Source: Rebecca billardiae RCC1528 (lineage: Eukaryota; Protista; Haptophyta). From it: DNA of 64,000 nt. A program made the position numbers and the translations under genes. Below the pieces are notes generated by a model. That model was given only the letters and a program-made list of their open reading frames with translations, made no database searches and was not told where the DNA came from. The stretch lies in NCBI GenBank assembly GCA_965240325.2, contig OZ251225.1, positions 4,030,001 to 4,094,000 of the forward strand. Direction: 5' to 3'. Shown here in pieces: positions 32,521 to 53,406 of the stretch. How positions within the stretch are numbered: position 1 is the first letter of the stretch; every line of letters starts with the position of its first letter.

Positions 32521-32551
<31 letters not shown>

Positions 32552-34788: not shown

Positions 34789-35092
34789 GTGGGGTTATTG
34801 GTACAATAACTGATTGTCTAAGAGGACGACAAGAACGCCGGGCGCCAGCGCCGCTCATCAGCCACATCGCCCTCTACCAGACCATCGCCTCAAAGGGCGC
34901 TGCTCCCGGACAAACAGTCTGTCCGGGTTGTTCTGCCGCCCAGGAGATCGATTTCCGGCGCCGGCCTCTGCCGCCTGCTTCGCCAGGCGCGGCGTGCGAG
35001 ATGGCTCCAGCCAAGCTCGTCCTGCGTCGCCGGCGGCGGCGGCTCGCACGCGGGTGGCGCGTCGCGTGCACCGACCAACATCTTTCGGCAAC
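34789..35092 (+). repeat. Direct repeat A1 (304 bp)
   Basis: gtggggttattggtacaataac...tctttcggcaac, identical by eye to 35806-36109. Confidence 0.95.
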
Positions 35093-35611
35093 TCGGCGGT
35101 AAGCAACGCTCCGCATCGCGCCCCCTCGCGCTTCGGGCCACCGCCTCTTCTCTCTCTGTGTGCGTGCGCACCCTGTGGCTCTTCCGCACCCGCCCCGATC
35201 GCACCGTTCCCTCTTCGCCACATGCCTCCTCCTCCGTGGGTGCGCCCCCACGCGGATCGCTGCTCCATCTCTCCCGCCCTGCCTCGGGATCGCCCCGGTG
35301 CCAACGCCAGCCGGCTCCTACACAAGGACCGCTGGCGGCACACCGCGCGCCGGGCCCCGTGCGCACCCGCGGGCCATTCACAGCATCCGCAAAGGCCGTC
35401 TAGCCTTCTCCTGCTTCCGCAGCGCCGCGCCTCGGGGCCGGCTGCCTGCTATCTCTCCTATTCGGGTTCCGTCTCACTCGCACTGCCCCACCTGCCCAGC
35501 CCCCGCTGGCCGGCCCTCGTGCGTGCGCGACTCACACGTGCCTTGCCCCCTTTCCTTCCCATCACTCAATGGGATTCTCCTCCACGCGGTGCTCCCCAAC
35601 ACACCATGAAA

Positions 35612-35805
35612 CGGGATCACTCACGCACCGCGTCTCGTCGACGGCGAGCGGCATGCCCACCGCATCTGCTGCCGCTCGCCAAGGCATGAGGACACGTAAA
35701 TCCCACTGAGTAGGAACACACGCAGCCGCCTCGGCATCGACATGCCAGGCGGCGTGCCCACCTTCGGCCAGCAGTTGGCGTCGGCGTTCACGAGGACGGC
35801 TAGAC
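35612..35805 (+). repeat. Direct repeat B1 (194 bp)
   Basis: cgggatcactcacgcacc...gaggacggctagac, identical by eye to 53213-53406. Confidence 0.95.
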
Positions 35806-36109
35806 GTGGGGTTATTGGTACAATAACTGATTGTCTAAGAGGACGACAAGAACGCCGGGCGCCAGCGCCGCTCATCAGCCACATCGCCCTCTACCAGACC
35901 ATCGCCTCAAAGGGCGCTGCTCCCGGACAAACAGTCTGTCCGGGTTGTTCTGCCGCCCAGGAGATCGATTTCCGGCGCCGGCCTCTGCCGCCTGCTTCGC
36001 CAGGCGCGGCGTGCGAGATGGCTCCAGCCAAGCTCGTCCTGCGTCGCCGGCGGCGGCGGCTCGCACGCGGGTGGCGCGTCGCGTGCACCGACCAACATCT
36101 TTCGGCAAC
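35806..36109 (+). repeat. Direct repeat A2 (304 bp)
   Basis: Second copy of A, directly following B1. Confidence 0.95.
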
Positions 36110-36466
36110 CCGCCCACCCAGGGCCCGTTGGTCTGGTGCTCGGGCGGCGGGATCACAACACCCGCCGTCCGACCGCCCGGTCTTGCGGCGCTGCACTTAG
36201 GGCTCATGTGACCCCCTGCCTCCCAACATGTTGAGCTGACGAGGCCAGGGGCGCGCATCTCAGCAGATGGCGTCGCCGGCGGTGAGTCAGGGCCGGTGCT
36301 GCAGCAGGCAGACCGGCGGCGCAGCTGCTGCAGAGCAGCAGTGCGGATGAACTGGCACAGTCTGGGGCACGCATCTCAGCAGATGGCGTTGCCGCTGGGG
36401 TGTCAGGGCTGGCGCCGCATCAGGCGGGCCGGCAGCAGCAGCTGCTGCGGAGCAGTGGCTGGCAGC

Positions 36467-36650
36467 GTGTGTGGGAGTATACGGTGCCGCCACCCCACCC
36501 CGCCTCCCCAGCCCTCCCCCGAGCCTACGACTCATCATCCCCGGTTCTCAGTCGAGCCACATCGAGCCACATCGAGCCACATCGAGCCACATCGAGCCAC
36601 GTCGAGCCACGTCGAGCCACGTCGAGCCACGTCGAGCCACGTCGAGCCAC
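36467..36650 (+). repeat. Left TIR of the PLV, including 10 x RTCGAGCCAC
   Basis: gtgtgtgggagtatacggtgccgcc...ccggttctca followed by a decamer array at 36551-36650. Reverse complement of 52348-52501. Confidence 0.92.
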
Positions 36651-36805
36651 CCCGCCGCCCCACCCCAACCCCCGCCGCCACCCCACCCCGCCGCCGCCGC
36701 CACCACCGCCGCCCCACCCCAACCCCCGCCGCCGCCGCCACGCCGCCGCCGCGTTTATTTCGGCGCAATATAAAATCTTACGCACGTGTATAATACTGAC
36801 CTATC

Positions 36806-37459
36806 ATGCCCTGGCGTGTGACTTGCGAAGCACGCACCGGAGCACCCGGCTTCGCCGACGACGAGGAATACGAGTCACGCTGGTTCGTGGACCTCACGGA
36901 CGCACTCCGCCACTTGATCCACTTCCACCCTTCTGAGCGCTGGCACTGCGTCCGCCACGCCACGGTGCGCTTCGAGTACTCGGGCGGTCGGGCATGCAAA
37001 TATAGTGACGGACTCATTTTCTACGGCAACAGCCTCAGGGACCTCGGCGTGAGCGAGCGCACCTTTGACGACGCGTTCGAGCAGGCGCTCGGCATCAAGC
37101 CGGTCACGCTGGAGCGGAAGAACAACGTGTTCGTACCAATCGACACGAACGCTTCCTCCGGCCGTCATCGCCTCACGCAAGAGACCATCAAGCAAAAGTC
37201 AAGGCGCTTGCTTCCTCCGGAGGAAGAGTTGGAGGCGCACAGGGAGGAGAACATCGAGTGCTCCGAATGCAACCGCGAGGTGCCATTCGAGCTCTTCGCC
37301 TTCCGCCGCCGCAGAGGCGGTAGCGTGACGCGCACTATGAACTGCTACGAGTGCCACCTCGAGCAGGTGCGCATCCGCCGGGCGCGCTTCGTGAGCAAGG
37401 GCGCATCCTCGGCGGAGCGCGACGCGCAAATAAAATCGGCGGCGCGCGCCGCCGCCTAG
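36806..37459 (+). CDS. PLV hypothetical protein with a C-terminal CxxC...CxxC zinc ribbon
   Basis: 217 aa; CSECN...F...CYEC; viral codon usage; AT-rich upstream motif. Confidence 0.7.
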   Translation: MPWRVTCEARTGAPGFADDEEYESRWFVDLTDALRHLIHFHPSERWHCVRHATVRFEYSGGRACKYSDGLIFYGNSLRDLGVSERTFDDAFEQALGIKPVTLERKNNVFVPIDTNASSGRHRLTQETIKQKSRRLLPPEEELEAHREENIECSECNREVPFELFAFRRRRGGSVTRTMNCYECHLEQVRIRRARFVSKGASSAERDAQIKSAARAAA

Positions 37460-37566
37460 GGAAAAAATCGGCGGCGCGCACCGCCTAGGGAAAAACGTAC
37501 GCGCGTTATTCTGGCGCCAAATAAAAATGTCAACCACCATCATAACACAAAATCCTCGCTTGTAGT

Positions 37567-40500
37567 ATGATGAACGTTGATGAGCTCATCCGAAATGCCC
37601 GCGCGCGCCTCAACGAGCGCACCCCTCGCATCGAAATTCCGATCACGAGCCGCCTAGGCGCTACCGCAGCAGCACGCACGAACTCCATCGCGAGAGCATT
37701 CCAGTCTCCGCCGGGCGCCCCCAGCTCGACGCCAGCCACCGGCCTCCGCTCCACCAGCCGCTCGCTCAGCCAATACACGCAGGAGCAGCTCACGCGCATC
37801 CGCCAGTTCCAAGACGCATTCGAGGGCTTCGGCATGAGTGCCCCGCAAGTCCTCGCCGGCATGCTCTACCAAGATCCGTGGAGCGGTAAGCGGCGCAAGA
37901 TCCCCTCCAACGGCAGGCAGCTCGACGCCCTCGCCGAGCGCGTCGCCAGCAAGATCTCCGGTCCCGCGCCCCGCACGCCCCGCCGCCGCCGCACGCCCGC
38001 CCGCCGCGCGCCCGACCGCGACCGCGCCGCGAGCCTCCTCCAGCGCTTCACTCGCTCCCAGCTCGCAAACCGCCTGACGGACGCCCAGCGCACGCAACTG
38101 GAGGTCGACCGGAACCTCGCCATGCTCTCGACGAGCATGCAGGATCGCTATTTTGAGTTCATCGACCGCAAGCGCTTTATTTTGCCGCTCAAGTGGATTC
38201 TGCACGAGAATCTTGGACTGCTCCTGGAGCAGCAGCTGAACTACACGCCGAGCCAGCATCACCTCGGAGCGATTCTCCAGACGATTAATGCGACTATTGA
38301 CGCTCGCCTGCAGGAGATACCGTACAGCCGGCTCTCGATGCACATTCGACTCGAATCAATATTCGCGCACGCCAAGGTGACGATTAGCAAATCCACCAAG
38401 AACGGAAAGGCCGTCGAGACGTCCGATTTCACCTGGGAGGCGGATCCCTTTGCAGCAACCATGCACGAGGTCGCTCAGCTCAAGACCCGCGAGGAGATTA
38501 GGCTCCACGCGCGCGCATTCAAAAACCAGAACGACCAGTACAATCCGACCGCCTTGAACAAGGGCTTCTACGAGTTTGGCGTGGTCACCGCGGGCGCGAA
38601 GGAGCTCGACAACTCGACGGCGCGCCTGGTCATCGACAAGGGCAACCCCGAGGACGTGCAGCAAGTCAAGACCAAGGTCGCGGAGATACTCGCGCTCGTC
38701 ACCTCCACGAGTAACCCGCAGTACAGCGCGCGGCGATTTGTGGGTCTCCTTAGCTTTGACGTGGACACCTATCCGATCAATGCCGTCCGCCAGCAGGGCT
38801 CGTCTTACGTCAAGCTCCCGCAGAAGTTTGGCGGCGGAAGCAAGGGCCTAATCAATCCCGAGAACAAGACCGACAACAAGTGCTTCCTGTGGGCGTCGCT
38901 CATGCACTTTGCGAACGCAGATGGCGCCAAGAAGCAGGAGCGCACCAGCACGCTCAAGCGCTACGAGTCGATGATCACCTGGCCGGAGGAGGTCAAGTTT
39001 CCGTTCGACTGCACCGACATCCCGCGCCTCGAGGAGGCCAACCCCACCCTCACCTGGAACGTCTTCTCGCTCGAGCAAGTCAAGCGCTCCTCGGAGGACC
39101 ATCACGAGCACCCCGAGGACACGGACGAGTTCAAGTACCCCATCGTGCCGATTCACACGACCACGCCGGAGAAGTACCGCGAGCGCACGCTCATCAACAT
39201 CCTCGCGTACGAGGACCACTACGTCTTCGTCAAGGACCTGGACCGGCTCCTCAGCGAGCGTGCGCACAACTGCGCGCACTGCCCCATCTGCACGCGCCGC
39301 TTCAGGACCAAGGCAATCCGCGATCAGCACACCGCGCAGTGCAACGCCAACTGGCGCCACCTGTTTCAGCCGTGGACGCTCGACGAGATTAAGAGCCAGG
39401 CGAGGACGCCTCAGGAGCTCAAGCGCACCGAGACGGACATCACCTACTCGCAGGACACCTCAGTCGTGTGGAAGCCGGTAGTAGCGGTGGCCGACTTTGA
39501 GGCGGTCAACACGCAAGTCAACGGGGAGACGCATCAGAAGGCGCAGTCGGTGAGCCTCAAGTTTGACTTCCAGGACGGCATGGACGCCCCTGACATGGAT
39601 TGCAGCTTCATGGGTCCGGATGCGGGTGTGCGATTTTTGCACGCGCTGCTCGACGCCACCCCCAAGATCCGCGACGCATGCTCGCGCTACAAGGACGACT
39701 TTTCAAAGGTCACCGCGGCCGACCGCGAGCACTTTGAGGCGAGCGAGACGTGCCACTTTTGCGGCGAGGCTGCCTTCGCCTCGAGCGCGGAGATTGCTCG
39801 CGCCGAAGCGGAGTACGAGCTCAAGTCGAAACTCGCGCCGGAGGAAAAGGACGAGTTGAAGCGCGCGCTCGAGGAGGTCCGAGCCAAGCGCAAGGTGCTC
39901 GACCACTGCCACTGCACGGGCCTCTACCGCGGCGCGGCACACTCGCGGTGCAACCTCAAGCACGGCACGCCGAGTCTCATCAGCAGCATACCGGTCTACT
40001 TTCATAACATGTCCTACGACTCGCAGCTCATCATGCAGGCGCTCTCCGACGTGAGCGTTCAGGCGCGCATCAAGGAGCACAAGGTCCGTATGAATGCAAT
40101 GGTGATCAACTCCGAGCGCTTCAAGACGCTCGAGATCGGGGCCTTCCGCATCCTCGACTCGATGACTTTTCTGGGTGGAAGCTTGGCGGAATCTCTGAAG
40201 AATCTGCCCTCAGAGGACAAGCACTCGCTGCGCCGGGCGGCCAACGAGCACGCCGAGCGCTTCGGCAAGGACCCGGATGCGGTCTTCGAGGCCTTCAAGC
40301 ACAAGCAAGTCTTCCCGTACGAGTTCGATTGGCACCAGCACCTCGACGAGCCCATCAGCGCAGATCCTCAGTTCTTCGGCTCCAAGCTGAGCGAAGGCTA
40401 CGGCAAAACCGACGAGGAGCTGGAGGAGCGCCTGGAGGCCGAGCAAAAGGAGCTCGAGGAGAGCCTGCCCGAGCGCATGAGCCGCCTGCAGGAGGCGACC

Positions 40501-42162
40501 GGCATCATCACGTGGCGTGATCTCCACGATCTGTACCTCAGCATTGACGTCTGCGGGCTCCAAGATTGCATGCGTGCCTTCCGCAAGACCTCGATGAACA
40601 CGTACGGCCTCGATCCGGCGTACTGCATCTCCAACTCGCAGTTCGCGTGGAAGGCCATGCTCAAGCTCACAGGCGTGAGCCTCGAGAGCATCCCCACGAG
40701 CGACCTGTACGAGCACGCCGAGTCCGGGCTCCGCGGAGGCATGTCGATGGCGCGCAACCGCATCGCACGCGCGAACCACCCGGATCTTCCTGAATATGAT
40801 CCCGCCAAAGAATTCTCAGCAATCCACGACTTTGACGCCAACGCACTTTATGCCTCAGTGATGTCGTGGAAGCTGCCAACGGGTGGGTATACGGATGTCG
40901 ATCCGGAGCGCTTCGATGTTAACGATCCGCGCTACGGCGGGCTCCCGACGCGACCGAATCAGCCGTGCGAGGAGTGGCAAGGCGATGTGGGGGCGCTCGT
41001 GACGGTGGACATCGACTACCCTGACCGCTTGCACGACCTGCACAGCGACTACCCGTTACTCCCCGAGGTAATGGAAGTGCCCGACGAGATGCTCTCGCCT
41101 ATGCAGCGGGGCAAGCGCGCCGTAAAGACCACCAAGCTGATTGCGCACCTTGGCTCCCGCAAACACTACACGCTCAACGTCACGATGCTCAAGTTTGCGC
41201 TGGCGCAGGGGCTCGAGCTCACCAAGGTGCATCGGGTCGTCGAGTTCGAGCAAAGCCCGTGGCTGCGCCCGTGGGTGGACCTCAACACGCGGCTGCGCAA
41301 GCAGGGCAAGAATCCTTTCGAGGAGGGGTATTTCAAGCTCATGGTGAACGCGTGCTTCGGCAAGACGATGGAGCGGATCTACCACCACACGCAAGCGCGA
41401 TTCATTGATAACCGAGCGGCATTCACTCGAGCCATGACGAGCCACCGGGCTCTCACCTACAAGCCGATCGCACCCGAGTTTGCGCTCGTGACGATGAGCA
41501 AGCGCGAGTACGTGCGTGACAAGCCCATCTTCGTGGGCGCCTCGATCCTTGACTTTTCGAAGCTGTGGATGTACACGTTTTTGTATAATGTGGTCTACCC
41601 CACCTTCGGACCGAAGAACGCCCGCCTGCTCGGGACTGACACCGACTCGCTCATCATGAATTTCCGGGCGCCCTCGCACGAGGCCTATTTGGAGAAAATG
41701 CTCAGCATCCGCGACGAATGGCTGGACATGAGCAAGTTTCCGGAGGGGCACCCGCTCTTCACGGACGCAAACCGCAAGACACCGGGCTTCTTCAAGGATG
41801 AGCTCGGCGACAATTTGGCTATAGCAGTGGCCTTTGTGCGGGCGAAGACCTACTCGATCAAGACGCTCAAGAGCCTCGAGGACGAGCTTGAGGACGTCCA
41901 CCGAGCCAAGGGTGCCCCCTCCCGCTGCGTGCAAAATAGCCTCACGCACGACGACTACGAGACGACGATTTTGGAGAGTTCGAGCGTCAGCGCGCAGTAC
42001 CACGATCTGCAATATAAAAATCACAACATTGTTTTCAGTCGGCGCGTGAAGAAGGTGCTCGATTGGGTCGACGATAAGGGCTACCATCTCTCGGCCGAGC
42101 GCACAATCGCCCTCAATCACTGGCGCATCAGGGCCGGCGCCCTCGCAGCGGCGATGGACTAG
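37567..42162 (+). CDS. polB: Protein-primed family B DNA polymerase (pPolB), 1531 aa
   Basis: Exonuclease motifs VADFE, FHNMSYD and YLSIDV. Polymerase motifs DFDANALY, KLMVNACFGK and TDTDS. Also DNKCFLWA...DHY (vOTU-like) and DHCHCTGLYRGAAHSRCN (endonuclease VII-like Zn motif). Confidence 0.96.
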   Translation: MMNVDELIRNARARLNERTPRIEIPITSRLGATAAARTNSIARAFQSPPGAPSSTPATGLRSTSRSLSQYTQEQLTRIRQFQDAFEGFGMSAPQVLAGMLYQDPWSGKRRKIPSNGRQLDALAERVASKISGPAPRTPRRRRTPARRAPDRDRAASLLQRFTRSQLANRLTDAQRTQLEVDRNLAMLSTSMQDRYFEFIDRKRFILPLKWILHENLGLLLEQQLNYTPSQHHLGAILQTINATIDARLQEIPYSRLSMHIRLESIFAHAKVTISKSTKNGKAVETSDFTWEADPFAATMHEVAQLKTREEIRLHARAFKNQNDQYNPTALNKGFYEFGVVTAGAKELDNSTARLVIDKGNPEDVQQVKTKVAEILALVTSTSNPQYSARRFVGLLSFDVDTYPINAVRQQGSSYVKLPQKFGGGSKGLINPENKTDNKCFLWASLMHFANADGAKKQERTSTLKRYESMITWPEEVKFPFDCTDIPRLEEANPTLTWNVFSLEQVKRSSEDHHEHPEDTDEFKYPIVPIHTTTPEKYRERTLINILAYEDHYVFVKDLDRLLSERAHNCAHCPICTRRFRTKAIRDQHTAQCNANWRHLFQPWTLDEIKSQARTPQELKRTETDITYSQDTSVVWKPVVAVADFEAVNTQVNGETHQKAQSVSLKFDFQDGMDAPDMDCSFMGPDAGVRFLHALLDATPKIRDACSRYKDDFSKVTAADREHFEASETCHFCGEAAFASSAEIARAEAEYELKSKLAPEEKDELKRALEEVRAKRKVLDHCHCTGLYRGAAHSRCNLKHGTPSLISSIPVYFHNMSYDSQLIMQALSDVSVQARIKEHKVRMNAMVINSERFKTLEIGAFRILDSMTFLGGSLAESLKNLPSEDKHSLRRAANEHAERFGKDPDAVFEAFKHKQVFPYEFDWHQHLDEPISADPQFFGSKLSEGYGKTDEELEERLEAEQKELEESLPERMSRLQEATGIITWRDLHDLYLSIDVCGLQDCMRAFRKTSMNTYGLDPAYCISNSQFAWKAMLKLTGVSLESIPTSDLYEHAESGLRGGMSMARNRIARANHPDLPEYDPAKEFSAIHDFDANALYASVMSWKLPTGGYTDVDPERFDVNDPRYGGLPTRPNQPCEEWQGDVGALVTVDIDYPDRLHDLHSDYPLLPEVMEVPDEMLSPMQRGKRAVKTTKLIAHLGSRKHYTLNVTMLKFALAQGLELTKVHRVVEFEQSPWLRPWVDLNTRLRKQGKNPFEEGYFKLMVNACFGKTMERIYHHTQARFIDNRAAFTRAMTSHRALTYKPIAPEFALVTMSKREYVRDKPIFVGASILDFSKLWMYTFLYNVVYPTFGPKNARLLGTDTDSLIMNFRAPSHEAYLEKMLSIRDEWLDMSKFPEGHPLFTDANRKTPGFFKDELGDNLAIAVAFVRAKTYSIKTLKSLEDELEDVHRAKGAPSRCVQNSLTHDDYETTILESSSVSAQYHDLQYKNHNIVFSRRVKKVLDWVDDKGYHLSAERTIALNHWRIRAGALAAAMD

Positions 42163-42212
42163 TTAGCGCGTTTTTCTCAGCTCAAATAATTTTCTCACGC
42201 ACTAGTATTAAA

Positions 42213-42722
42213 ATGGCCCCCTGCGATTTTGACGTTTCCGCTCGCCACGATTGTCGCTGCCGCGATTGCCGCGATTGCCGCGATTGCCGCGAGATGCGCA
42301 CCGAGTTCGAGAGCCTCAAGGAGCGCGTGGTGGCTCTCGAGCGTGTCGTCGTCGCCAAGCCGCCCAAGCCGAGCGCGCGCCCCGGGTCGCTCACGGTGAC
42401 ATCAATAACCGCCATTGAGAGTCACTTTGGCGGCATCGAAGTGGTCGACGCCAAGTTCTTCAACGAGCACTGCATCGTGGGTAGACTCAGCGAGCCCTTC
42501 GTGGAGGGTCACACTGTACCGCAATCGTTCAAAATTACCCGCAAAATTGTCGCTATCAGCGAGGCGTACGGCGAGCCGGGTCGGGCGCCGATCTCTCAGT
42601 CGGCTACGCCCGCAAGCCTTCGGGACGTGTTGTGGCCGCGCTCGTGGTCACGTCAGCGAGGCGGAGCTTCGCCAAGCGCGCCAAGCGCGCCGATGTTTGC
42701 AGATTCTGATGGTGAGGACTGA
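42213..42722 (+). CDS. PLV hypothetical protein with a Cys-rich (CRD)n N-terminus and a short coiled coil
   Basis: 169 aa, TAAAATG start context, co-oriented with polB. Confidence 0.6.
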   Translation: MAPCDFDVSARHDCRCRDCRDCRDCREMRTEFESLKERVVALERVVVAKPPKPSARPGSLTVTSITAIESHFGGIEVVDAKFFNEHCIVGRLSEPFVEGHTVPQSFKITRKIVAISEAYGEPGRAPISQSATPASLRDVLWPRSWSRQRGGASPSAPSAPMFADSDGED

Positions 42723-42828: not shown

Positions 42829-43479
42829 CTATTTTGATGGGTTCTTTTTGCGAGCGGACGACCGCACTGATGGCCGCAGTAACCGGATACCCTCGCTGCG
42901 GATACCGGTGATAGGGCCCGTGAATCGCGCGGTGATGACCTGCGCACGGCGATTGGCGTTCGCACGCGTGGTCACGTTCGCGCCGGCGGGGATGACATTG
43001 TTTTGCTCGACGTCTGGGTCGCGCCCGCCTTGGCGCACGACCTTCCCAGCCTTGTCAAACACGTACCATTTTCCGTCGACGGCCCGGCGCGCGCGCGCCA
43101 GTAACCGGGCGACGTTCTCCTCGAGCATTGCCGGATTTGAAATTTGGCGCCACTCTTTATCGAGCGGCGGCTTGACGAATCCAAAACCGGGGTTTGTGAG
43201 CGCGAGCAGACGCTTCTCTGCAGGAAAGACCAAATTCGGAGAGACGACCAAAAACCCGACTAACCTGAACGAATTACCGGGTTTGGCGTAGGGCATCATA
43301 TGGCGATAGCCTTTAAAGGTTCGACTCACGATATTAGCGGTGAGCCCCATTTTGAACAAACGACCGCTCGTATCCCACCCCGGGGCGATTACATATAGGC
43401 CCGCCGCCGGCTTTCCTCCCGGGGCGCGCTTGAGCAAATTGGCGTTTTTCATGGCCTTTTGGAACTGCGATGATTGCAT
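42829..43479 (-). CDS. GIY-YIG-like (T5orf172/MUG113-type) nuclease-domain protein
   Basis: GLYVI...LFKMGLTANIVSR...Y...P...AEKRL...EW pattern. Confidence 0.65.
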   Translation of the reverse strand: MQSSQFQKAMKNANLLKRAPGGKPAAGLYVIAPGWDTSGRLFKMGLTANIVSRTFKGYRHMMPYAKPGNSFRLVGFLVVSPNLVFPAEKRLLALTNPGFGFVKPPLDKEWRQISNPAMLEENVARLLARARRAVDGKWYVFDKAGKVVRQGGRDPDVEQNNVIPAGANVTTRANANRRAQVITARFTGPITGIRSEGIRLLRPSVRSSARKKNPSK

Positions 43480-43494
43480 GACCCTTTAGCCTTT

Positions 43495-43767
43495 TTAGCT
43501 AATTGTTACTCCGATTTTACTCACATTCGTAGCGAGTGACTTGGAGTCGCCCCACAGCAAGTGGCGGCTGTAATAGATGCCAGACTCGGGGTCGTCCCAG
43601 CCCTTATCGTGGCGATGGCGAGCGATCCACGCCGTTTTCTTCGCAGGGTCGCCATGATCGATGTACGTCGACCCGCCACGCGCGCCAAAGTGGAGCGTCC
43701 GACCACCCGGCGAAGTCAGCATGAACCTCTTGTCTTTGCGCGTAGATCGATGTAGGCGGCGAATCAT
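43495..43767 (-). CDS. Tlr6F-like conserved PLV protein
   Basis: STRKDKRF...LHFGARGGSTYIDHGD...WIARH...W...YYSRHLLWG matches the Tlr6F family pattern. Confidence 0.8.
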   Translation of the reverse strand: MIRRLHRSTRKDKRFMLTSPGGRTLHFGARGGSTYIDHGDPAKKTAWIARHRHDKGWDDPESGIYYSRHLLWGDSKSLATNVSKIGVTIS

Positions 43768-45950: not shown

Positions 45951-45991
45951 ACAGTCCCATAGAGCCAAAAATCAGTGGTACCGGTACCATA

Positions 45992-46636
45992 ATGATGCGA
46001 GCCGTACCCACTGTATCAACCGCCGAAGGCGAAGCGCGCGTCGCGAAAGCGGCCTGGGACGCCGGCGCTACGCTCGCCCGAGATCGCAAGTTCCTCATCG
46101 AGGCAAGCTATATGAGCAAGGCGGCAGCCCGACCGCACCTAGCCAAGCGCGGGTACCGACTTGATGAGCGCCTGTCGGATGAAGCGGACAAAGTAGCCGT
46201 GCACATCGCGAGCGGTCGGCCCGTCGTACTTTTCCGAGGCTCGGCGTCATTCGCCGACTGGGCCGTGTCGGACGTCCTGATCGCGCTGGGATTGAGCGCC
46301 AAGGACCCACGCCACGCGCGCGCGCGCAAGCTGGTGGAGATCGTCAAGCGCAAATACGGGCAGTCCACCGCTGCGGTGGGGCACTCTCTGGGTGGGCACC
46401 TCGCGGAAGAAAGCGGCGCCTCGCAGATTCACACGTCACAAAAAGCGGCCGGCCTAAAAGATATCGGAAAGACTTTGCCGAAAAGCCAATTCGATACCCG
46501 CTCGCCGGGCGATATAGTGAGCGCGCTGTCGGTTACGCAGCGCGGTGGGCGCCGGCAGACCCTCGGGCGTGCCAGCTTTGTGGACGCTCTACATAGTCCA
46601 GCGTTGTTCGCTTTGAATCAGCACCGCGCTCGATAA
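45992..46636 (+). CDS. Class 3 lipase-like alpha/beta hydrolase
   Basis: VVLFRGS, nucleophile GHSLGG, DIVS and a C-terminal His. Lipases are recurrent in PLVs. Confidence 0.85.
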   Translation: MMRAVPTVSTAEGEARVAKAAWDAGATLARDRKFLIEASYMSKAAARPHLAKRGYRLDERLSDEADKVAVHIASGRPVVLFRGSASFADWAVSDVLIALGLSAKDPRHARARKLVEIVKRKYGQSTAAVGHSLGGHLAEESGASQIHTSQKAAGLKDIGKTLPKSQFDTRSPGDIVSALSVTQRGGRRQTLGRASFVDALHSPALFALNQHRAR

Positions 46637-46773
46637 TCCGCGCTCGGTAATTCTGAGCGCTCGGTAATTCTTAGCGCTCGGTAATTCTGAGCGCTCGGTA
46701 ATTCTGAGCGCTCGGTAATTCGCGCTGAGTAATTCTTAGCGCTCGGTAATTCGCGCTCGGTAATTCTTAGCGC
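46626..46773. repeat. Tandem array of ~9 x 14/17-bp GCGCTCGGTAATTC(TKA)
   Basis: Units abut with no spacers and span the gap between two convergent genes. Confidence 0.9.
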
Positions 46774-47060
46774 AAGTAACGATCCGCCCGGCTGGCGGCC
46801 GCGTCCGCGCGTCCGGCGATCTGGCGCCCGCGATTCACCGCTCGCCGCGCGGCTCCAGTGTAGGGGCTGGCGACGTCGCCGAGGCCATCCGTGCGGTCTA
46901 TTTCATTCAAAAATTGGTTTACGTCGCCGCCGATTTTGTCGACGCACGGCTTCAGGTGGTGCGCCGCCGAGCTGATGGGGCGGCCGAGTCGACGCGCTGT
47001 GTTTGCCAGCCCGCCGAGCCGACCGCGAATGCCTCGCGTGAGCCTGCCAAGAAATGACAT
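46767..47060 (-). CDS. Small basic protein with an amphipathic N-terminal helix, downstream of MCP
   Basis: 97 aa, MSFLGRLTRGIRGRLGGLANTARRLG; co-oriented with the capsid genes. Confidence 0.7.
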   Translation of the reverse strand: MSFLGRLTRGIRGRLGGLANTARRLGRPISSAAHHLKPCVDKIGGDVNQFLNEIDRTDGLGDVASPYTGAARRAVNRGRQIAGRADAAASRADRYLR

Positions 47061-47092
47061 ATCGGTGTATAATTATCATATTTTTTTATTTT

Positions 47093-48406
47093 TTACACGG
47101 CGAACTGGAGCTGGTTCTGCGCGACCTCCATCATGACGTCGTGCAGCGCCCAGGCATGCCACGTGAACGGCGCACCGTGGTTGCTATCGGCCTCGAAAAT
47201 GGCGTGCTCCGTGTCCAGACGGCGACCGTCGAAGAGAATGTCGGACTGCGAGAATGCCGACGTGTTGAATGCGATGGCAAAAGCTGAGTTCGCGAAGCGC
47301 GCGCCATTCACCTTGGAAGCGTAGTCGGCGACGCCAAGTGCGTTGAACGCCCGCACGAGCTCCGCGCGCGTCTCGGCAGCGCCATTCGTCGCGCTGACCG
47401 GCTGGTCTGGCACGAGCGTCGAGCCAATGCGCAGCTGCCACTTGGAGATGGCCGCGCGAGTGCGCAGCGTGACATCGCCCGCGTAAGCATTGCTGTTCGC
47501 ATCCGGATAGGCGGCGATGATAATCGTGTTGACGCTCGCGAGGCGGAAGGGCAGCTGCCAGCTCGTCGCGGTGTTGGGCGATACTGAGTGCTGCGCGTGG
47601 AGGTAGCTCATCGACGGAACGTAGAGGTGGTCGAGGCTGCGCGCAATCTTGGTGTAGGCCGAATCCGAGAGCAGCACCGTGCCCAGCTGCATCTTGACGT
47701 CCTGGATCGATGGCATGGCCCCGGGATCAATCGTGTAGACGCCCCAGTCCTTCGTCTGAGCGAGGTGAATGTCCACGCGGAGGCCTTGGTGCAGCTCGGA
47801 GATGGGGATGGCCTTGCCGCAGAGCGCACCGAACACGTACACAAGCGGGAGGCACACAGTGAGCAAAGCGCCATTCGCGATGACCGCACCCTTAGGCACG
47901 TTGAGAGCATTGTTGATCGTCGCCTGCGACAGAGTCGCGGCGGTTACATCATAATCGGCGCTGCCGAGCATCGAGGCAGTGGAGAAGCACGACGAAGGCC
48001 CCGACTGGAAATCCAGCAGGAGATTGTGCAGCAGGCCCGCCTTGCCCGCCGAGGCGATCATCTGAGAGCCGTGATAGGCGTCGATGCGCTCGATGAGGCT
48101 GTAAGCGCTCTGCGAGAGAGTCAGAGAGGTGCCAGAGGTGTTGTTAATCGTGAATTGAACGACGCTTTGACTGGGATCCATCATAGCGCCTGGTGTGCCC
48201 GTAGGCAGATCGAACTGCACCACCTGCCCCGGAGAGAATGTCGACGCCGGTCCGGCATAGACGGTCGTGCGCTTGTACGTGGCACCGACGGCCACGGGCT
48301 TGGGGTTGGCAAAGTCATAATACATCGGTGCCGTCTCCTCCTGCTCAAGCACCATCGCCTCGTCCGCGCGAATGTCGTTCTTCATGTACCGCCCGGCGTA
48401 CGCCAT
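47093..48406 (-). CDS. Double jelly-roll major capsid protein (PLV type)
   Basis: 437 aa, beta-rich. TFSPGQVVQFDLP, DPSQSVVQFTI, SLIERI, PISELHQGLRVDIHLA and WQLRIGSTLVPDQPV. Adjacent to penton and ATPase genes. Confidence 0.85.
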   Translation of the reverse strand: MAYAGRYMKNDIRADEAMVLEQEETAPMYYDFANPKPVAVGATYKRTTVYAGPASTFSPGQVVQFDLPTGTPGAMMDPSQSVVQFTINNTSGTSLTLSQSAYSLIERIDAYHGSQMIASAGKAGLLHNLLLDFQSGPSSCFSTASMLGSADYDVTAATLSQATINNALNVPKGAVIANGALLTVCLPLVYVFGALCGKAIPISELHQGLRVDIHLAQTKDWGVYTIDPGAMPSIQDVKMQLGTVLLSDSAYTKIARSLDHLYVPSMSYLHAQHSVSPNTATSWQLPFRLASVNTIIIAAYPDANSNAYAGDVTLRTRAAISKWQLRIGSTLVPDQPVSATNGAAETRAELVRAFNALGVADYASKVNGARFANSAFAIAFNTSAFSQSDILFDGRRLDTEHAIFEADSNHGAPFTWHAWALHDVMMEVAQNQLQFAV

Positions 48407-48442
48407 TTATGTGTGTGTGTTTGGCTCCGACATTTTTTTTTT

Positions 48443-49204
48443 TTACACAACAACAAATTTGAGCACGACCGAGATTTCGGCGCCGTTGAGATTCACTTCA
48501 GTCATCGTCTCAGAATCGAGGAGGCGCAGATCGAGATTTTGTACTGAGCGGCGGTTCGTCTCGAGGAGGTCGTCTGTTTGGCTCTGGTACGCGAGGACTT
48601 GGCCGAACGCGACCGTATTTTGGATGGTGACGAGAATATTGCTCGTCGAGCCTGAGTTCAAGGTCGAGTCGCGCGACTTTACGTCGAGGCCTTCGCACAC
48701 GAGGTGGTAGCCGCGCGGAATCAGATCGACCACGGCAGGCGCCTCGATGCTCCCAGTCGCTGGCACGATGAGATCCGACTGCGCTAGGCCCAAGACGCGC
48801 GTCGCGGTGGACGAGCCCTTGACCGTGATTGGGTTGGCGCTCGAGTTGGCAAACGTGAATTTACCGCGCGATGCGTCGAAGGTCACCGTGAGCGTGGCGT
48901 TGACCGGCGAGCCTGCAAAGAGCGTGTCCAGCGCGGTGGCGAGCGAAGTGGCTGTGTAATTCTTGGGTGGGATCGTCATAGTGGTGTCGCCCCAATTCCC
49001 GGCGAGACCAATCGAGCCGTTGGAGCCGTCGACCGCATAACGGCACGACGGGAAGCTTACCGACTCGACGGCGACGAGAATGCTCTCATCGTGGGTCGCC
49101 ATGATTGGATGGCTCAGCGTAAAGTCAGCGGCGCTCGTCATCGTGCGCCCCAGCGGGAAGCGGTCCGCCTGAGCCGTGTGCAGGTGAAGCCGGTGAGTCG
49201 TCAT
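48443..49204 (-). CDS. Minor capsid (penton) protein
   Basis: 253 aa; VAVESVSFP, TIPPKNYTATSLA, RVLG, NILVTI, LDLRLLD...VNLNGAEISVVLKF is a typical PLV/virophage penton pattern. Confidence 0.82.
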   Translation of the reverse strand: MTTHRLHLHTAQADRFPLGRTMTSAADFTLSHPIMATHDESILVAVESVSFPSCRYAVDGSNGSIGLAGNWGDTTMTIPPKNYTATSLATALDTLFAGSPVNATLTVTFDASRGKFTFANSSANPITVKGSSTATRVLGLAQSDLIVPATGSIEAPAVVDLIPRGYHLVCEGLDVKSRDSTLNSGSTSNILVTIQNTVAFGQVLAYQSQTDDLLETNRRSVQNLDLRLLDSETMTEVNLNGAEISVVLKFVVV

Positions 49205-49404
49205 TGACAGGGGTGGAGATATTTACGTCGATATTTGGGGCGACGATTGGGTCGATGATTGCGTCGATGATCTCATCGTCCAAGCCAGGACCCATCCGCT
49301 TGCGCGCGATGAATCTGGCGGCCGCCTCCCACGAAAAATCAAACATGGCGGGATCCATTTTTCGATCAAAATGGAGTGTCTATTATCTCTAGAACAGATA
49401 TAAA

Positions 49405-49851
49405 ATGGACGAGGCACCGCCGCCGCCGCCAGCGCTCGCCGTGCCGATCAAGCAGCCCAAAGCACGCACGGCAGCGCAGATCAAAACCACCGAGGTGATG
49501 CGCTTGGCCAAGCTGCGAAACACGTACACCGAGTACGCCCAGCGGTACGCCAATCTCGCGGCCCAAGAGCAAGCCAAAATCGACGAGTTGAACGCTACTG
49601 TGCCAGTGCCAGAGCCCCCGCCAATCAAGCGCATGACCCCGCCGCCGCCGCCGAAGGAGCCCGACGAGGACACGCTGGTGCTCGAAGACGACCAGCCAAT
49701 CGAGTCTACGCGAGCGCCACCACCACCGCGGGCGCCGTCGCGACCGCCGTCGCGAGCGCCGCCGAGGGCAGCGCCTAGTGCGCCACCGAGTGCGCCGCCG
49801 AGGGCACCGCCGAGTGCAGCACCCCCACAAAGAAAACTGAGGTACATCTAG
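49405..49851 (+). CDS. PLV hypothetical Pro-rich/coiled-coil protein
   Basis: 148 aa, TATAAAATG start, upstream of the ATPase. Confidence 0.65.
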   Translation: MDEAPPPPPALAVPIKQPKARTAAQIKTTEVMRLAKLRNTYTEYAQRYANLAAQEQAKIDELNATVPVPEPPPIKRMTPPPPPKEPDEDTLVLEDDQPIESTRAPPPPRAPSRPPSRAPPRAAPSAPPSAPPRAPPSAAPPQRKLRYI

Positions 49852-49866
49852 AAAGCTCTATCTAAA

Positions 49867-50571
49867 ATGCAGATTGCCGAAGAGGCAAATCAAGTCGATC
49901 TGAGACTGCCGCGCATCACGGCGGACAAGCCGTTAAAGGTGGGCCTACCCGAGCCACTGCCCAACCTGACCTTCCACTGGGGCGTGTTTGGTCCGCCACG
50001 CAGTGGCAAGTCGAGCCAGGTGGCGGGCTTGATCACTGGCCCCTACCGAGGCGTTTTTGGAAATGTTATCTGGTGCGCACCGCAGACATCCATGGACTCG
50101 TTCGCCAAATCGCCGCTGCGCGACTTGGAATTTGTGTTTAACGAATTTCATGGCGCGGTCCTGGACGAAATCATCGACATCGCCGAGGAGAATGCCGCCG
50201 GCGGTCGTCCAACGCTGCTGGTGATTGACGATTTCGCGGCCAGCCTGCGCGACGCAAACCTGCAAAAGGCTTACGCCAAGATGGTGCAGAATCGACGGCA
50301 TATCCGGCTTTCGATCATCGTGATCGCGCAAGGCTATATGAGCGTGCCGCTGAATGTGCGCAAGCTTTTTTCAAATATTACCATGTTTCGTCCGAACAAT
50401 TCCCGCGAGCTCACCGCGCTGCACTCCGAGCTTATCCCCATGTCAAAGGTGGACTTTATGGGCGTCTATCACTACATATTCGGAAATGAGCGTCCGCACA
50501 CGTTCATGTTCATGGACGTTGATGGTGGTATTTTGTACCGAGAGTGGAATCGACTGCGCATTAAAAATTAA
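49867..50571 (+). CDS. A32-like (FtsK/HerA) genome-packaging ATPase
   Basis: Walker A GPPRSGKS, Walker B LLVIDD, and the NRRHIRLSIIVIAQ motif. Confidence 0.92.
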   Translation: MQIAEEANQVDLRLPRITADKPLKVGLPEPLPNLTFHWGVFGPPRSGKSSQVAGLITGPYRGVFGNVIWCAPQTSMDSFAKSPLRDLEFVFNEFHGAVLDEIIDIAEENAAGGRPTLLVIDDFAASLRDANLQKAYAKMVQNRRHIRLSIIVIAQGYMSVPLNVRKLFSNITMFRPNNSRELTALHSELIPMSKVDFMGVYHYIFGNERPHTFMFMDVDGGILYREWNRLRIKN

Positions 50572-50588
50572 TCCGCGGTAGCAATAAC

Positions 50589-51377
50589 ATGGCGACTGCA
50601 GTCCATCATCATACCTTCCGCGACACGGTGCCAGCGCGAGTGACTCACTTCACGCTGAACGGCACGCCGTATGCCGGTGCCATGCACCACCGTGGCAAGA
50701 AAGACGGCTGGTGGTCAGGCTTGCATCCAGGTCCAAGCTCGCGCAAGCTCGTGCATCATAAGAAACCCATGATATTGCCTGCGCTGGTCACGATCGCCAG
50801 GCGAGGCCCGCCTACCAAGACCAAGACCAGCTTTGGGCGCGTCGCCCCCGGCGTGTACGACCTCGGCCAGTTCACGACGGATGAGGGCCACTACGATGCG
50901 AAGCACCTAAAATTCCCGCAACGCGATGCCAGCGGTCAGCCAATCTCGCGGCTGGTGGTGCGCTCTCAGCCGGCGCCTACTATGACGAGCTCTGACTCCG
51001 CCAATCGTCCTGCGGGGAGACCCGCGCCCGCAACGCCCGCGAAGATCCTCGTACCCGCGACGCCTTCCCCCGCCGGACCAAGCCGCTCGAGTTCTGTCAG
51101 AGTCCCGCCAGTGCCGGACTCGTCTGGGGGTTCGTCCGTTGATAATGAACTACCTGTGGTCAGAAGCTCCACTCGAACTACTAACAAGAAGATTGCCGAA
51201 GGCAGAATCATATCATACCTCGATAACTTCTTAGCGAGATCTAATCAGCTGGGCTGGACTCCCGAAATTCTAGAGCAGACAATTGCGGCAAATCTAAAGA
51301 TAAGAATAAATCTCGTTCGAGAAATCATGCGAGAGAGGGATGCTGCCGAGGCGCTGGCAGCACTTCGTGGGTCTTAA
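50589..51377 (+). CDS. PLV hypothetical protein
   Basis: 262 aa; His-rich N-terminus, Ser/Pro linker, helical C-terminus. Confidence 0.6.
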   Translation: MATAVHHHTFRDTVPARVTHFTLNGTPYAGAMHHRGKKDGWWSGLHPGPSSRKLVHHKKPMILPALVTIARRGPPTKTKTSFGRVAPGVYDLGQFTTDEGHYDAKHLKFPQRDASGQPISRLVVRSQPAPTMTSSDSANRPAGRPAPATPAKILVPATPSPAGPSRSSSVRVPPVPDSSGGSSVDNELPVVRSSTRTTNKKIAEGRIISYLDNFLARSNQLGWTPEILEQTIAANLKIRINLVREIMRERDAAEALAALRGS

Positions 51378-51397
51378 TTGAAATCTTAGCCGCTCCT

Positions 51398-51511
51398 ATG
51401 TGGTGTGCTCTGCTGTTTGCGCTTGTAGCCGGAACCAGCATTGGCCAGTTCATTTGGATTGCGTTCTTGATGCCTGCTCCTAAGGCGACACCGCTAAAGA
51501 AGCCTTCTTAG
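51398..51511 (+). CDS. Putative 37-aa single-pass membrane peptide
   Basis: MWCALLFALVAGTSIGQFIWIAFLMPAPKATPLKKPS*. Fills the gap between two ORFs exactly and is below the ORF-track cutoff. Confidence 0.45.
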   Translation: MWCALLFALVAGTSIGQFIWIAFLMPAPKATPLKKPS

Positions 51512-51825
51512 CGGAAGTGGTACACGATTACCTTGCCCTTGATGGCCATGCCGCGCACCGCATCGGCTACCTCGAACACAGGCGTATCGTACAGTTTGAT
51601 GTAGGCCTCAGCATCGAGCAGCTCGATGTCGATGAGATCAAAGGTGCGAGTGCGCTGGAGGCGCTTGCTCAGGTAGCCGTCGCGAAGCGTGATGGTCGTC
51701 TTGGTCTTCTTGTTGCGCAGGTCGCTCAGGTACTTACCCGATGGCTTGCGCGCCTCCGTGCGCCGGCCCTCGTCGAGCCACGTCGAGCCGCGGTCGAGCG
51801 GGAGCGAGACCGTTGGGGTAACCAT
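51508..51825 (-). CDS. PLV hypothetical protein next to the right end
   Basis: ~105 aa from the ATG at 51825, with viral codon usage. Confidence 0.5.
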   Translation of the reverse strand: MVTPTVSLPLDRGSTWLDEGRRTEARKPSGKYLSDLRNKKTKTTITLRDGYLSKRLQRTRTFDLIDIELLDAEAYIKLYDTPVFEVADAVRGMAIKGKVIVYHFR

Positions 51826-51837
51826 CGTGCGATGCGT

Positions 51838-52310
51838 GGCTTCGTGGGGCTCCGTGAGCGCGCTTTTCACCTAAGCCGCTTGTCTTTAACTACGAACCGC
51901 CACGGGCTTCGTGGGGCTTCGTGGGGCTCTGTGAGGGCGCTTTTTCACCTAGACCGCTTGTCTTTAACTACGAACCGCCTTCGTGGGGGCTTCGTGGGGC
52001 TTCGTGGGGCTCTGTGAGGGCGCTTTTTCACCTAGACCGCTTGTCTTTAACTACGAACCGCCTTCGTGGGGGCTTCGTGGGGCTTCGTGGGGCTCTGTGA
52101 GGGCGTCCGACGAAACCTTAGTGACGCGGCCAGGACGCAAGTGTTTCGTCGCCAGCCACGAGGGGCCGAGGGAATGCTCAAAAATGAGTTCGGTACGGTG
52201 GGGCTTCGTGGGGCTTCGTGGGGCTTCGTGGGGCGGCTCGGGGCTCGTGGTGGGATGGTGGCTCGTGGGTCGTCGTGGGTCGTCGTGGGTCGTGGTGGGT
52301 CGTGGGCGGG
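51838..52310. repeat. Subterminal arrays: ~80-bp unit x3 plus GGGCTTCGTG(G)/GGGTCGTCGT microrepeats
   Basis: tttcacctag/aaccgcttgtctttaactacgaaccgcc-type unit repeated three times; ggcttcgtgg repeated many times. Confidence 0.85.
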
Positions 52311-52347
52311 GTGGGGCGGCGGCGGGGTGGCGGTGGCGGGGGTCGAC

Positions 52348-52501
52348 GTGGCTCGACGTGGCTCGATGTGGCTCGACGTGGCTCGATGTGGCTCGACGTG
52401 GCTCGATGTGGCTCGACTGAGAACCGGGGATGATGAGTCGTAGGCTCGGGGGAGGGCTGGGGAGGCGGGGTGGGGTGGCGGCACCGTATACTCCCACACA
52501 C
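52348..52501 (-). repeat. Right TIR of the PLV, including 7 x GTGGCTCGAY
   Basis: Reverse complement of the left TIR; ends ...gtatactcccacacac. Confidence 0.92.
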
Positions 52502-52537
52502 CGCGCGTCCAGGACGCGCGCGGCAGCAGACGCGCGA

Positions 52538-52712
52538 GCGCGGAGCAGCGCGGGCGCAGCGGCGCGGGAGCGCGGAGCAGCGCGGGGCGCGCGGAGCAGC
52601 GCGGAGCAGCGCGGAGCAGCGCGGAGCGCGCGGAGCAGCGCGGAGCAGCGCGGAGCAGCGCGGAGCAGCGCGGAGCAGCGCGGAGCAGCGCGGAGCAGCG
52701 CGGAGCAGCGCG
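52538..52712. repeat. (GCGGAGCAGC)n decamer array just outside the right TIR
   Basis: More than 10 decamer units, some degenerate. Confidence 0.9.
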
Positions 52713-53212
52713 GGCGTCATGCTGGTACACTGGATTTGTCCAAGGAAAGCAGGTGAGCAGCACCGGACATGGACGAGAAGCAGTGGTACAAAGTTGAGCG
52801 GCAACAGGACGGACGGTGCGATCGCCGATTGGCTGATCGCGGCAAAATCTGGGTAAGTCGGCACGGCGATGATACTACCGCCCCGAGCCCAGGAGCGATC
52901 GGAGCTCGATCGCTGTTTTGGCCCGGCGCAAGAGCGCCGGAAATAAGGGCCAGGTTCAGAGGCTTGAGAGCTGATGAGATCGCGAGGCATGTGATCCTCG
53001 CGGTGGCGTCCGTCCTGTCGTGCGCGGTGAGCTTTTAGCAGGGCTCGAGACGCTCGGAGCTTGCGGTAATCCCAATATACTCTTAAAAAAATTTTTTTTT
53101 TACGATTGGGTTTTTCAGGTTAGGTCCCCAGCAGTGCTGCTCCCGGGCGGTCAGGTGGAGGTTCAGTCGACGAGTCCGCAGGCGCTCAGCCTTCCGTCAG
53201 CGGACGTCCGCG

Positions 53213-53406
53213 CGGGATCACTCACGCACCGCGTCTCGTCGACGGCGAGCGGCATGCCCACCGCATCTGCTGCCGCTCGCCAAGGCATGAGGACACGTAA
53301 ATCCCACTGAGTAGGAACACACGCAGCCGCCTCGGCATCGACATGCCAGGCGGCGTGCCCACCTTCGGCCAGCAGTTGGCGTCGGCGTTCACGAGGACGG
53401 CTAGAC
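53213..53406 (+). repeat. Direct repeat B2 (194 bp)
   Basis: Copy of 35612-35805, followed by (AT)n. Confidence 0.95.

What the first reader, a model, noticed from the sequence alone, without database searches (positions are those of the whole stretch)
34789..53406. Integrase-less Polinton-like virus carried inside a split-direct-repeat (YR-retroelement-type) shell
Seen: A1(304)-X(519)-B1(194)-A2(304)-357 bp-[16-kb PLV with its own TIRs]-711 bp-B2(194). Read on the minus strand this is a-[long body]-b-a-[short unique]-b. Established: that layout, with an internal exact end-to-end junction, is the split-direct-repeat signature of Ngaro/PAT/TOC1 tyrosine-recombinase retrotransposons, whose body normally holds gag/RT/YR. 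Here the body holds a dsDNA virus genome and no gag/RT/YR. The known Cafeteria virophage-Ngaro association has the opposite topology (Ngaro inside the virus). Inference: either the PLV inserted into a non-autonomous SDR element, or the virus uses the shell's ends and a YR supplied in trans to integrate and excise. The second would be an undescribed virus-retroelement composite. A head-to-tail pair of A...B rolling-circle units is an alternative reading.
Basis: partly seen in the sequence, partly recalled or inferred. Interest (0 to 1): 0.9.

Follow-up and report, generated by a model that had tools for sequence, protein, structure and literature searches.

The report
Algal virus nested in gene-less retroelement
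A complete-looking 16-kb DNA virus with no detectable integration enzyme sits inside a small gene-less jumping element of an alga; it likely landed there once rather than travelling with it, a nesting already reported in another protist, though how such viruses integrate is still unknown.

Summary
The layout is real: A (304 bp) and B (194 bp) are exact repeats, joined B|A at 35805/35806, around a 16,035-bp Polinton-like virus (PLV) with its own inverted ends. The virus encodes a double-jelly-roll capsid, protein-primed polymerase and packaging ATPase; no integrase or recombinase was found. The host is a GC-rich alga, likely a Pavlovales haptophyte.

The hitch-hiking reading is not supported. 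In one public run, shell parts lie at depth 13-35 with no differences, in the ratio a multicopy split-repeat element predicts. Virus pieces lie at 2-7 and many differ. So most shells likely lack this virus. No genome was held, so no empty shell or enzyme-coding partner was seen directly.

The novelty premise also fails: a virophage inside an Ngaro element is reported in Cafeteria (PMC8547959), and integrase-less integrated PLVs in Tetraselmis (PMC9356565).

Verdict: a new PLV nested, probably once, in a young non-autonomous split-direct-repeat element. About 10% remains for the virus borrowing the retroelement's recombinase.

The parts
34789..35092 (.). Repeat A1, outer left end of the shell
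   Evidence: 304 bp exact to A2; preceded by an AT run; A-like ends at two other flanks in run X1
35093..35611 (.). X, 519-bp unique non-coding spacer
   Evidence: contig 35096-35805 in run X1, depth 19.2, 0 differences
35612..35805 (.). Repeat B1
   Evidence: 194 bp exact to B2
35776..35864 (.). B|A end-to-end junction (35805/35806), with a 7-bp-stem hairpin just inside A and an imperfect 14-bp inverted repeat across it; likely recombination site
   Evidence: 60-bp junction contig at depth 15.6 in X1, 30 letters each side
35806..36109 (.). Repeat A2
36110..36466 (.). Y, 357-bp shell body left of the virus, holding a 116-bp-period duplication
36467..36742 (+). Left terminal inverted repeat of the virus, with a 10-mer array
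   Evidence: 104 bp exact, 85% over 284 columns
36806..37459 (+). 217-aa ORF with a weak match to endonuclease VII / HNH zinc-binding region
   Evidence: PHROG 1035 E 6e-5; Atlas hits under 0.9
37567..42162 (+). [quoted passage not shown]
   Evidence: PF03175 E 3.5e-7, above cut-off; polymerase motifs; 11 relatives, best 48%
42213..42722 (+). 169-aa ORF, no family
42829..43479 (-). 216-aa ORF, likely T5orf172 (GIY-YIG-type) nuclease
   Evidence: Atlas 0.92 to T5orf172/MUG113 clusters; no Pfam hit
43495..43767 (-). 90-aa DUF5754 protein
   Evidence: PF19058 E 7e-16
43800..45950 (+). 716-aa LamG-domain protein, likely virion fibre
   Evidence: PF13385 E 1.4e-24
45992..46636 (+). 214-aa lipase-like hydrolase
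   Evidence: GxSxGG motif at 130; PHROG esterase/lipase E 0.003
46767..47060 (-). 97-aa basic ORF, no family
47093..48406 (-). [quoted passage not shown]
   Evidence: model pLDDT 86.7; Foldseek to PBCV-1 capsid E 9e-19, TM 0.65; 392 relatives
48443..49204 (-). 253-aa ORF beside the capsid gene, candidate minor capsid protein (by position; not confirmed)
   Evidence: model unusable, pLDDT 37.5; no sequence hit
49405..49851 (+). 148-aa proline-rich ORF, no credible family
49867..50571 (+). A32-like packaging ATPase, 234 aa
   Evidence: PF04665 E 3e-4, just under cut-off; Walker A and B
50589..51377 (+). 262-aa ORF, no family
51508..51825 (-). 105-aa ORF, no family
52227..52501 (-). Right terminal inverted repeat of the virus
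52502..53212 (.). Z, 711-bp shell body right of the virus, with a 10-mer array at 52537-52713
   Evidence: contig 52684-53061 in X1, depth 13.9, 0 differences
53213..53406 (.). Repeat B2, outer right end of the shell, followed by an AT run
   Evidence: B end followed by an AT run in X1

Best explanation
A 16-kb Polinton-like virus with no detectable integrase lies inside a 2.6-kb gene-less element with split direct repeats; the element is likely a multicopy retroelement moved by borrowed enzymes, and the virus likely inserted into this one copy afterwards as an independent event. Shown: the repeat layout, the exact B|A junction, 14 open viral ORFs, complete viral inverted ends, no target duplication longer than 1 bp round the virus. 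Inferred: the shell is copied through RNA by a partner's reverse transcriptase and inserted at T|A in AT runs by its tyrosine recombinase (Ngaro/PAT/VIPER model; partner not found). Inferred: the linear virus genome was then integrated whole, by a recombinase from another virus or by host break repair. The 18.6-kb composite is probably no longer copied as a unit.
For: (1) 0 differences in 498 bp of A and B: the shell copy is young or recently homogenised. (2) Run X1: junction 15.6, Z 13.9, X+B 19.2, start of A 35.2; a unit with two A, two B, one X, one Z and one junction predicts 19.4 for X+B and 31 for A at n=15.6. Host flank pieces are at 2-3. (3) Virus: mean depth 1.0 over 23 of 23 bins (max 3.3); single pieces 2.2-7.4, many with substitutions, whereas the long shell pieces have none. 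Cargo copied with the shell should be as deep and as uniform as the shell. (4) X1 contigs fork exactly at the end of B and the start of A, and other flanks end in the same AT context. (5) A related 1338-bp contig matches Y 36348-36443, then 12 more letters of Y's tail, and runs on into alternating GC like the start of Z, not into the viral end (only 30 loose letters shown). (6) Precedents: virophage inside Ngaro4 (PMC8547959); PLVs nested in host transposons (bioRxiv 10.64898/2026.07.28.741278); integrated PLVs without any integrase (PMC9356565).
Against: No genome was held, so no empty shell, free-standing virus copy or RT/YR partner was seen directly. The depth argument rests on one run of one sample, contigs only; the tool warns depth is not copy number; 14 of 60 and 8 of 11 pieces were displayed. 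No joint across the virus was listed. Three details fit less well: the X+B contig does not break at B's start where Z should join, Y 36110-36347 has no cover, and the later part of A is at 12.8, not 31. The junction and the target share no exact crossover core, unlike the 3-bp core of DIRS1-type elements (PMC3266345). X1 may be another strain.
Confidence: 0.7

Rival explanations
1. The virus lineage has no integrase and borrows the tyrosine recombinase of the shell's retroelement family in trans; it would circularise end to end and recombine at purine-pyrimidine runs, sometimes inside shells.
For: No integrase found; no target duplication over 1 bp and both viral ends complete to the base, as expected of recombinase-type insertion (PMC12220804). 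The viral ends, if joined, would read AC|GTG, the same five letters as the B|A junction, and both insertions fall in alternating purine-pyrimidine runs.
Against: The match has only about three free letters and was noticed after the fact. The virus target is GC-alternating, the shell target AT-alternating, and one extra C lies at the viral junction. Other resident PLVs could supply a recombinase. In Tetraselmis no integrase was found inside or outside the elements. One site only.
Confidence: 0.1
2. Shell and virus form one mobile composite: recombination between B1 and B2 would release a 17.6-kb circle carrying the virus and one intact B|A junction, which a partner's recombinase could reinsert.
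For: The geometry allows it: 35806-53406 is 17,601 bp bounded by B copies; solo AB repeats, the expected leftover, are described in Cafeteria. Viral ORFs are all open.
Against: Virus depth is several-fold below shell depth and virus pieces are divergent while shell pieces are identical. The virus keeps its own complete ends and polymerase. An RNA route needs an 18.6-kb transcript through genes on both strands, three times the ~6 kb of Cafeteria Ngaros.
Confidence: 0.06
3. The shell is two head-to-tail non-autonomous rolling-circle (Helentron/Helitron2-like) units, A-X-B (1017 bp) and A-Y-Z-B (1566 bp), sharing ends; the virus inserted into the second.
For: A hairpin 5 nt from one end and an imperfect subterminal inverted repeat, 13 of 14 letters with one gap; no clear target duplication; the X+B contig is unbroken at B's start.
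Against: Junction depth equals X and Z depth, so the tandem is the usual form, not a rare one. Against PMC4067079: the subterminal repeat is 16 nt from the 5' end, not 2-4, and the flanks are not TT. The inverted repeat is weak: 53 of 2000 controls and 357 of 692 GC-richer host windows reach its score. Replitron repeats are 6 bp, not hundreds.
Confidence: 0.1
4. The arrangement is an assembly chimera joining a virus copy to repeat copies.
For: No listed contig of X1 bridges either virus-shell junction; arrays lie close to both junctions.
Against: Both viral ends are complete and symmetric; Y's tail and Z's head share a 9-mer motif and look continuous in a relative; host genes continue on both sides. 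Holes in the laid contigs also hit parts of A that must exist, so they prove nothing.
Confidence: 0.04

Closest known systems
EMALE03 virophage inside an Ngaro4 retrotransposon, Cafeteria burkhardae strain Cflag (PMC8547959; section 11 read whole, passages elsewhere; the figure supplement was not seen)
   Same: A TIR-bounded capsid-encoding dsDNA virus nested inside a split-direct-repeat element
   Different: There the virus is a mavirus-like virophage with its own rve integrase and the Ngaros are ~6 kb with RT and YR; here a PLV with no detectable integrase inside a 2.6-kb gene-less shell
Integrated PLVs of Tetraselmis (PMC9356565; passages)
   Same: Endogenous algal PLVs with no rve integrase or tyrosine recombinase detected; mechanism stated to be unknown
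   Different: Different capsid lineage and host; no split-repeat shell in the passages read
VIPER and its non-autonomous SIRE, Trypanosoma cruzi (PMC6681497; passages); PAT/TOC elements (PMC3266345, passages; TOC1 layout recalled)
   Same: A1...B1-A2-B2 repeats of 173/219 bp at 100% identity; SIRE equals the A2-to-B2 part, like the 1017-bp A-X-B unit here
   Different: No coding partner seen here; no shared crossover core; carries a virus
Teratorn, piggyBac-herpesvirus fusion (PMC5601938; search listing and start of abstract only)
   Same: The model for a virus moved by a transposon's ends, which the novel reading would parallel
   Different: Teratorn encodes its transposase and is shown to transpose as a unit; here no enzyme and no second composite copy
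Endogenous PLV capsid genes of Pavlovales
   Same: Named capsid relatives at 32-33% identity in Pavlovales sp. CCMP2436 and Diacronema lutheri
   Different: This capsid is a distinct lineage; the closest protein (75%) is unnamed

Membership tests
Polinton-like virus | [quoted passage not shown] | tested here: met
Polinton-like virus | A32-like packaging ATPase | tested here: met
   PF04665 E 3e-4, 21 bits against cut-off 22.8, plus Walker motifs
Polinton-like virus | Minor capsid protein | tested here: inconclusive
   candidate by position only; searches gave nothing usable
Polinton-like virus | 14-40 kb with terminal inverted repeats | tested here: met
   16,035 bp, TIRs; range from PMC12220804
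Maverick/Polinton in the strict sense | Protein-primed polymerase B | tested here: met
Maverick/Polinton in the strict sense | rve integrase and 5-6-bp target duplication | tested here: not met
Ngaro/PAT/VIPER split-direct-repeat retroelement | A1-body-B1A2-B2 repeat order with exact internal junction | tested here: met
   (minus strand, or circular permutation on plus)
Ngaro/PAT/VIPER split-direct-repeat retroelement | gag, RT/RNase H and tyrosine recombinase, in the element or in a partner with the same ends | tested here: inconclusive
   absent from the element and from 111 of 112 long frames elsewhere in the window; genome not held
Ngaro/PAT/VIPER split-direct-repeat retroelement | Short crossover core identical in junction and target | tested here: not met
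   junction GAC|GTG, target TAT|ATA; the core is described for DIRS1-like elements, not checked for PAT/Ngaro
Ngaro/PAT/VIPER split-direct-repeat retroelement | Interspersed copies with the same ends, no target duplication | tested here: inconclusive
   depth and loose ends in one run fit; a 2- or 4-bp AT duplication cannot be excluded in an AT run
Helentron/HINE | Subterminal repeat 2-4 nt from the 5' end | tested here: not met
   16 nt
Helentron/HINE | Subterminal repeat 38-60 nt from the 3' end | tested here: met
   45-59 nt on the minus strand; statistically weak
Helentron/HINE | Palindrome 8-35 nt from the 3' end | tested here: inconclusive
   hairpin spans 6-22 nt from the end
Helentron/HINE | TT on both flanks | tested here: not met
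   AT-dinucleotide flanks
Replitron | Short (6-bp) terminal direct repeats, HUH Rep | tested here: not met
Teratorn-type virus-transposon fusion | Several copies of the composite with shared outer ends | not testable with these tools
   no genome; indirect depth evidence is against

The most novel reading that the evidence does not exclude
This integrase-less PLV gets into and out of the genome with a host retroelement's tyrosine recombinase: its joined ends mimic the AC|GTG junction, and B1-B2 recombination would free a 17.6-kb virus circle with a ready-made attachment site. That would give a first mechanism for how PLVs without integrases become endogenous.
Probability: 0.1. Interest if true: 0.75.

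Novelty: new member of a known kind. Interest (0 to 1): 0.3.

Why it matters
As most likely read, it is an ordinary nested insertion: it adds a divergent PLV lineage and a miniature split-repeat element for a Pavlovales-like alga, both with clean ends. Its value is as a test site. How integrase-less PLVs integrate is stated to be unknown (PMC9356565), and whether retrotransposons help mobilise them is left open (PMC12721341). A genome-wide count of shells and virus ends in this host would settle that cheaply. If the borrowed-recombinase reading held, it would link a retroelement enzyme to the spread of a DNA virus.

Tried and rejected
A 22-nt pattern from A found 0 matches in metagenome contigs. 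An 18-nt pattern from the viral end found 1 viral contig, a chance match without further likeness. Capsid and polymerase locus searches gave nothing close: 0 loci, and 3 weak loci of which one is a 28% relative; the capsid alignment was too diverse to search with. Runs X2 and X3 held next to nothing; no RNA holder was listed. Uncovered stretches in X1 (Y, both virus-shell junctions) are not counted either way. Rfam: 0 matches. A hidden recombinase: no HxxR...H/W...Y pattern in 14 of 14 viral ORFs (pattern recalled); the polymerase's first 400 aa gave no Atlas hit and carry a motif I read as the terminal-protein/vOTU region described in PMC11071308 (assignment not tested by structure). Minor capsid not confirmed. 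X, Y and Z show no notable likeness to each other (local scores 24-31). PMC9977147 had no TOC1/DIRS passage. No earlier finding existed for this genome or sequence. Literature: 10 searches listed no paper whose title or read passages describe a PLV mobilised by split-repeat ends; the library lacks most subscription papers, and no supplements were read.
Full report
OBSERVATION. A (34789-35092 and 35806-36109, 304 bp) and B (35612-35805 and 53213-53406, 194 bp) have no differences, and B1 abuts A2 without overlap. Between 36467 and 52501 lies a 16,035-bp segment of GC 0.607, bounded by inverted repeats that are exact for 104 bp and 85% alike over 284 columns. Without that segment the shell is 2583 bp. 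Its outer ends lie in an AT run; the virus is flanked only by one C on each side.

THE VIRUS. Fourteen ORFs without stops cover 94% of 36800-51830. The 437-aa protein folds with pLDDT 86.7 and matches the PBCV-1 double-jelly-roll capsid (E 9e-19, TM 0.65). There is a 1531-aa protein-primed polymerase, an A32-like ATPase, a LamG fibre-like protein, DUF5754 and a lipase-like protein, and likely a T5orf172-type nuclease. The minor capsid candidate could not be confirmed. No integrase, recombinase, reverse transcriptase or HUH family was hit in 135 of 135 frames of 75 aa or more or in the 14 ORFs against PHROGs and NCBIfam. Five ORFs have no credible family, so a very divergent enzyme is not strictly excluded. 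It meets the PLV definition, not the strict Polinton one.

HOST. The window holds light-harvesting, ribosomal S21e, SacI and Maf genes. The best named relative of the Maf protein is from Pavlovales sp. CCMP2436 (57%), and the named capsid relatives are from that strain and Diacronema lutheri. The host is likely a Pavlovales haptophyte; the species is not established.

IS THE VIRUS PART OF THE SHELL? No genome was held, so I used the one public run that holds part of the locus (X1, share 0.37, contigs only). Shell pieces there: X+B 19.2, B|A junction 15.6 (30 letters each side, one short of the tool's bridging rule), start of A 35.2, Z 13.9, all with 0 differences; later part of A 12.8. A unit with two A, two B and one each of X, Z and junction predicts 19.4 and 31 for X+B and A. 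Flank pieces are at 2-3. Contigs fork exactly at the end of B and the start of A; B runs on into an AT repeat, and A-like ends occur at two other flanks. The virus averages 1.0 over 23 of 23 bins; single pieces are at 2.2-7.4 and many carry substitutions. If the virus were cargo it should be as deep and uniform as the shell. It is neither. A related contig follows Y's tail and continues into alternating GC, like Z's start, not into the viral end.

LIMITS OF THAT TEST. It is one sample; depth is not copy number; only 14 of 60 and 8 of 11 pieces were shown; no joint across the virus was listed. The X+B contig is unbroken where Z should join B, and Y is mostly uncovered. Uncovered parts also include the end of A, so holes are uninformative. 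The empty shell is inferred, not seen.

WHAT THE SHELL IS. The order matches the A1-[ORFs]-B1A2B2 structure of Ngaro (PMC8547959) and VIPER, whose non-autonomous SIRE equals the A2-B2 part (PMC6681497). It reads so on the minus strand, or as the circular permutation on the plus strand (my inference from the two-junction circle model, recalled), so the strand is open. The junction region folds better than shuffles (z -3.4 on the minus strand and -2.0 on the plus strand for 110 nt; 2 of 8 stretches folded, the others from -0.7 to -3.2), in line with unchecked notes on other genomes. Against membership: no coding partner was seen, and junction and target share no exact core. The rolling-circle rival has a terminal hairpin and a weak subterminal repeat in its favour but fails the 5' position and the TT target of Helentrons, and a tandem that is the usual form fits a split-repeat unit better. 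I file the shell as working like a non-autonomous Ngaro/PAT-type element, membership unproven.

MECHANISM. Likely order: a shell copy inserted at T|A in an AT run using a partner's enzymes; the linear virus then integrated whole between Y and Z. The lack of a target duplication argues against an rve integrase and fits a tyrosine recombinase in trans or break repair (PMC12220804). Retrotransposing the 18.6-kb composite is unlikely, given genes on both strands and three times the usual length. Recombination between B1 and B2 could still free a 17,601-bp circle with one junction; this is geometry, not evidence.

WHAT IS KNOWN. PMC8547959 (section 11 read whole) states that an EMALE03 virophage lies inside an Ngaro4 element, so the topology is in print. 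PMC9356565 (passages) found no integrase in or outside Tetraselmis PLVs and calls the mechanism unknown. In PMC12220804 (passages) cluster C3 has rve in 260 of 305 PLVs and no recombinase, which leaves 45 with neither. The Halocafeteria preprint (passages) reports PLVs nested in host transposons. PMC10120064 says most, not all, elements encode integrases (passages). Also read as passages only: bioRxiv 2022.07.28.501842, bioRxiv 2026.06.19.733378, PMC10288648, PMC12721341, PMC11071308, PMC3266345, PMC4067079, PMC9977147. Teratorn was seen as a listing only. No supplements were read; those of PMC8547959 may detail the nested case.

VERDICT. Real structure, ordinary cause: a new PLV nested in a young gene-less split-repeat element (0.70). 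Borrowed recombinase 0.10, rolling-circle shell 0.10, co-mobile composite 0.06, chimera 0.04. The one hint for the novel case is that the viral ends, if joined, would repeat the five letters of the shell's junction; with about three free letters, noticed after the fact, it is weak. Interest 0.3.

Noticed in passing
window 1303-2412: 1110-bp element with 423-bp inverted ends (96.7%) starting CAAGGG and a 7-bp target duplication; looks like a young non-autonomous DNA transposon, P-element-like by recalled end motif
   Followed up: partly
window 149-955: Two tandem copies of about 400 bp at 91.6% identity
   Followed up: no
window 14511-19779: ZNFX1-like helicase gene (PF25396, AAA_11, AAA_12), a family recalled as antiviral, 17 kb from the virus
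   Followed up: no
window 46625-46773 and 51838-52105: Intergenic arrays inside the virus: 17-bp period about 8 copies, and 83-bp period 3.3 copies near the right end
   Followed up: no
window 53025-53065: Loose ends in run X1 suggest relatives in which a sequence like the start of Z joins directly to 53025, i.e. a shorter shell variant without the viral end (30 letters shown)
   Followed up: no
window 53071-53109: AT-rich hairpin with A and T runs inside Z; possible terminator or assembly break point
   Followed up: partly
window 34330: A piece at summed depth 13.7 in X1 shows another repeat in the left flank
   Followed up: no
window 31384-33297: Host ORF with NUMOD3 motifs just left of the shell
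   Followed up: no
P0006 cluster: Diacronema lutheri carries at least four annotated genes for a related capsid on three contigs, labelled hypothetical
   Followed up: no
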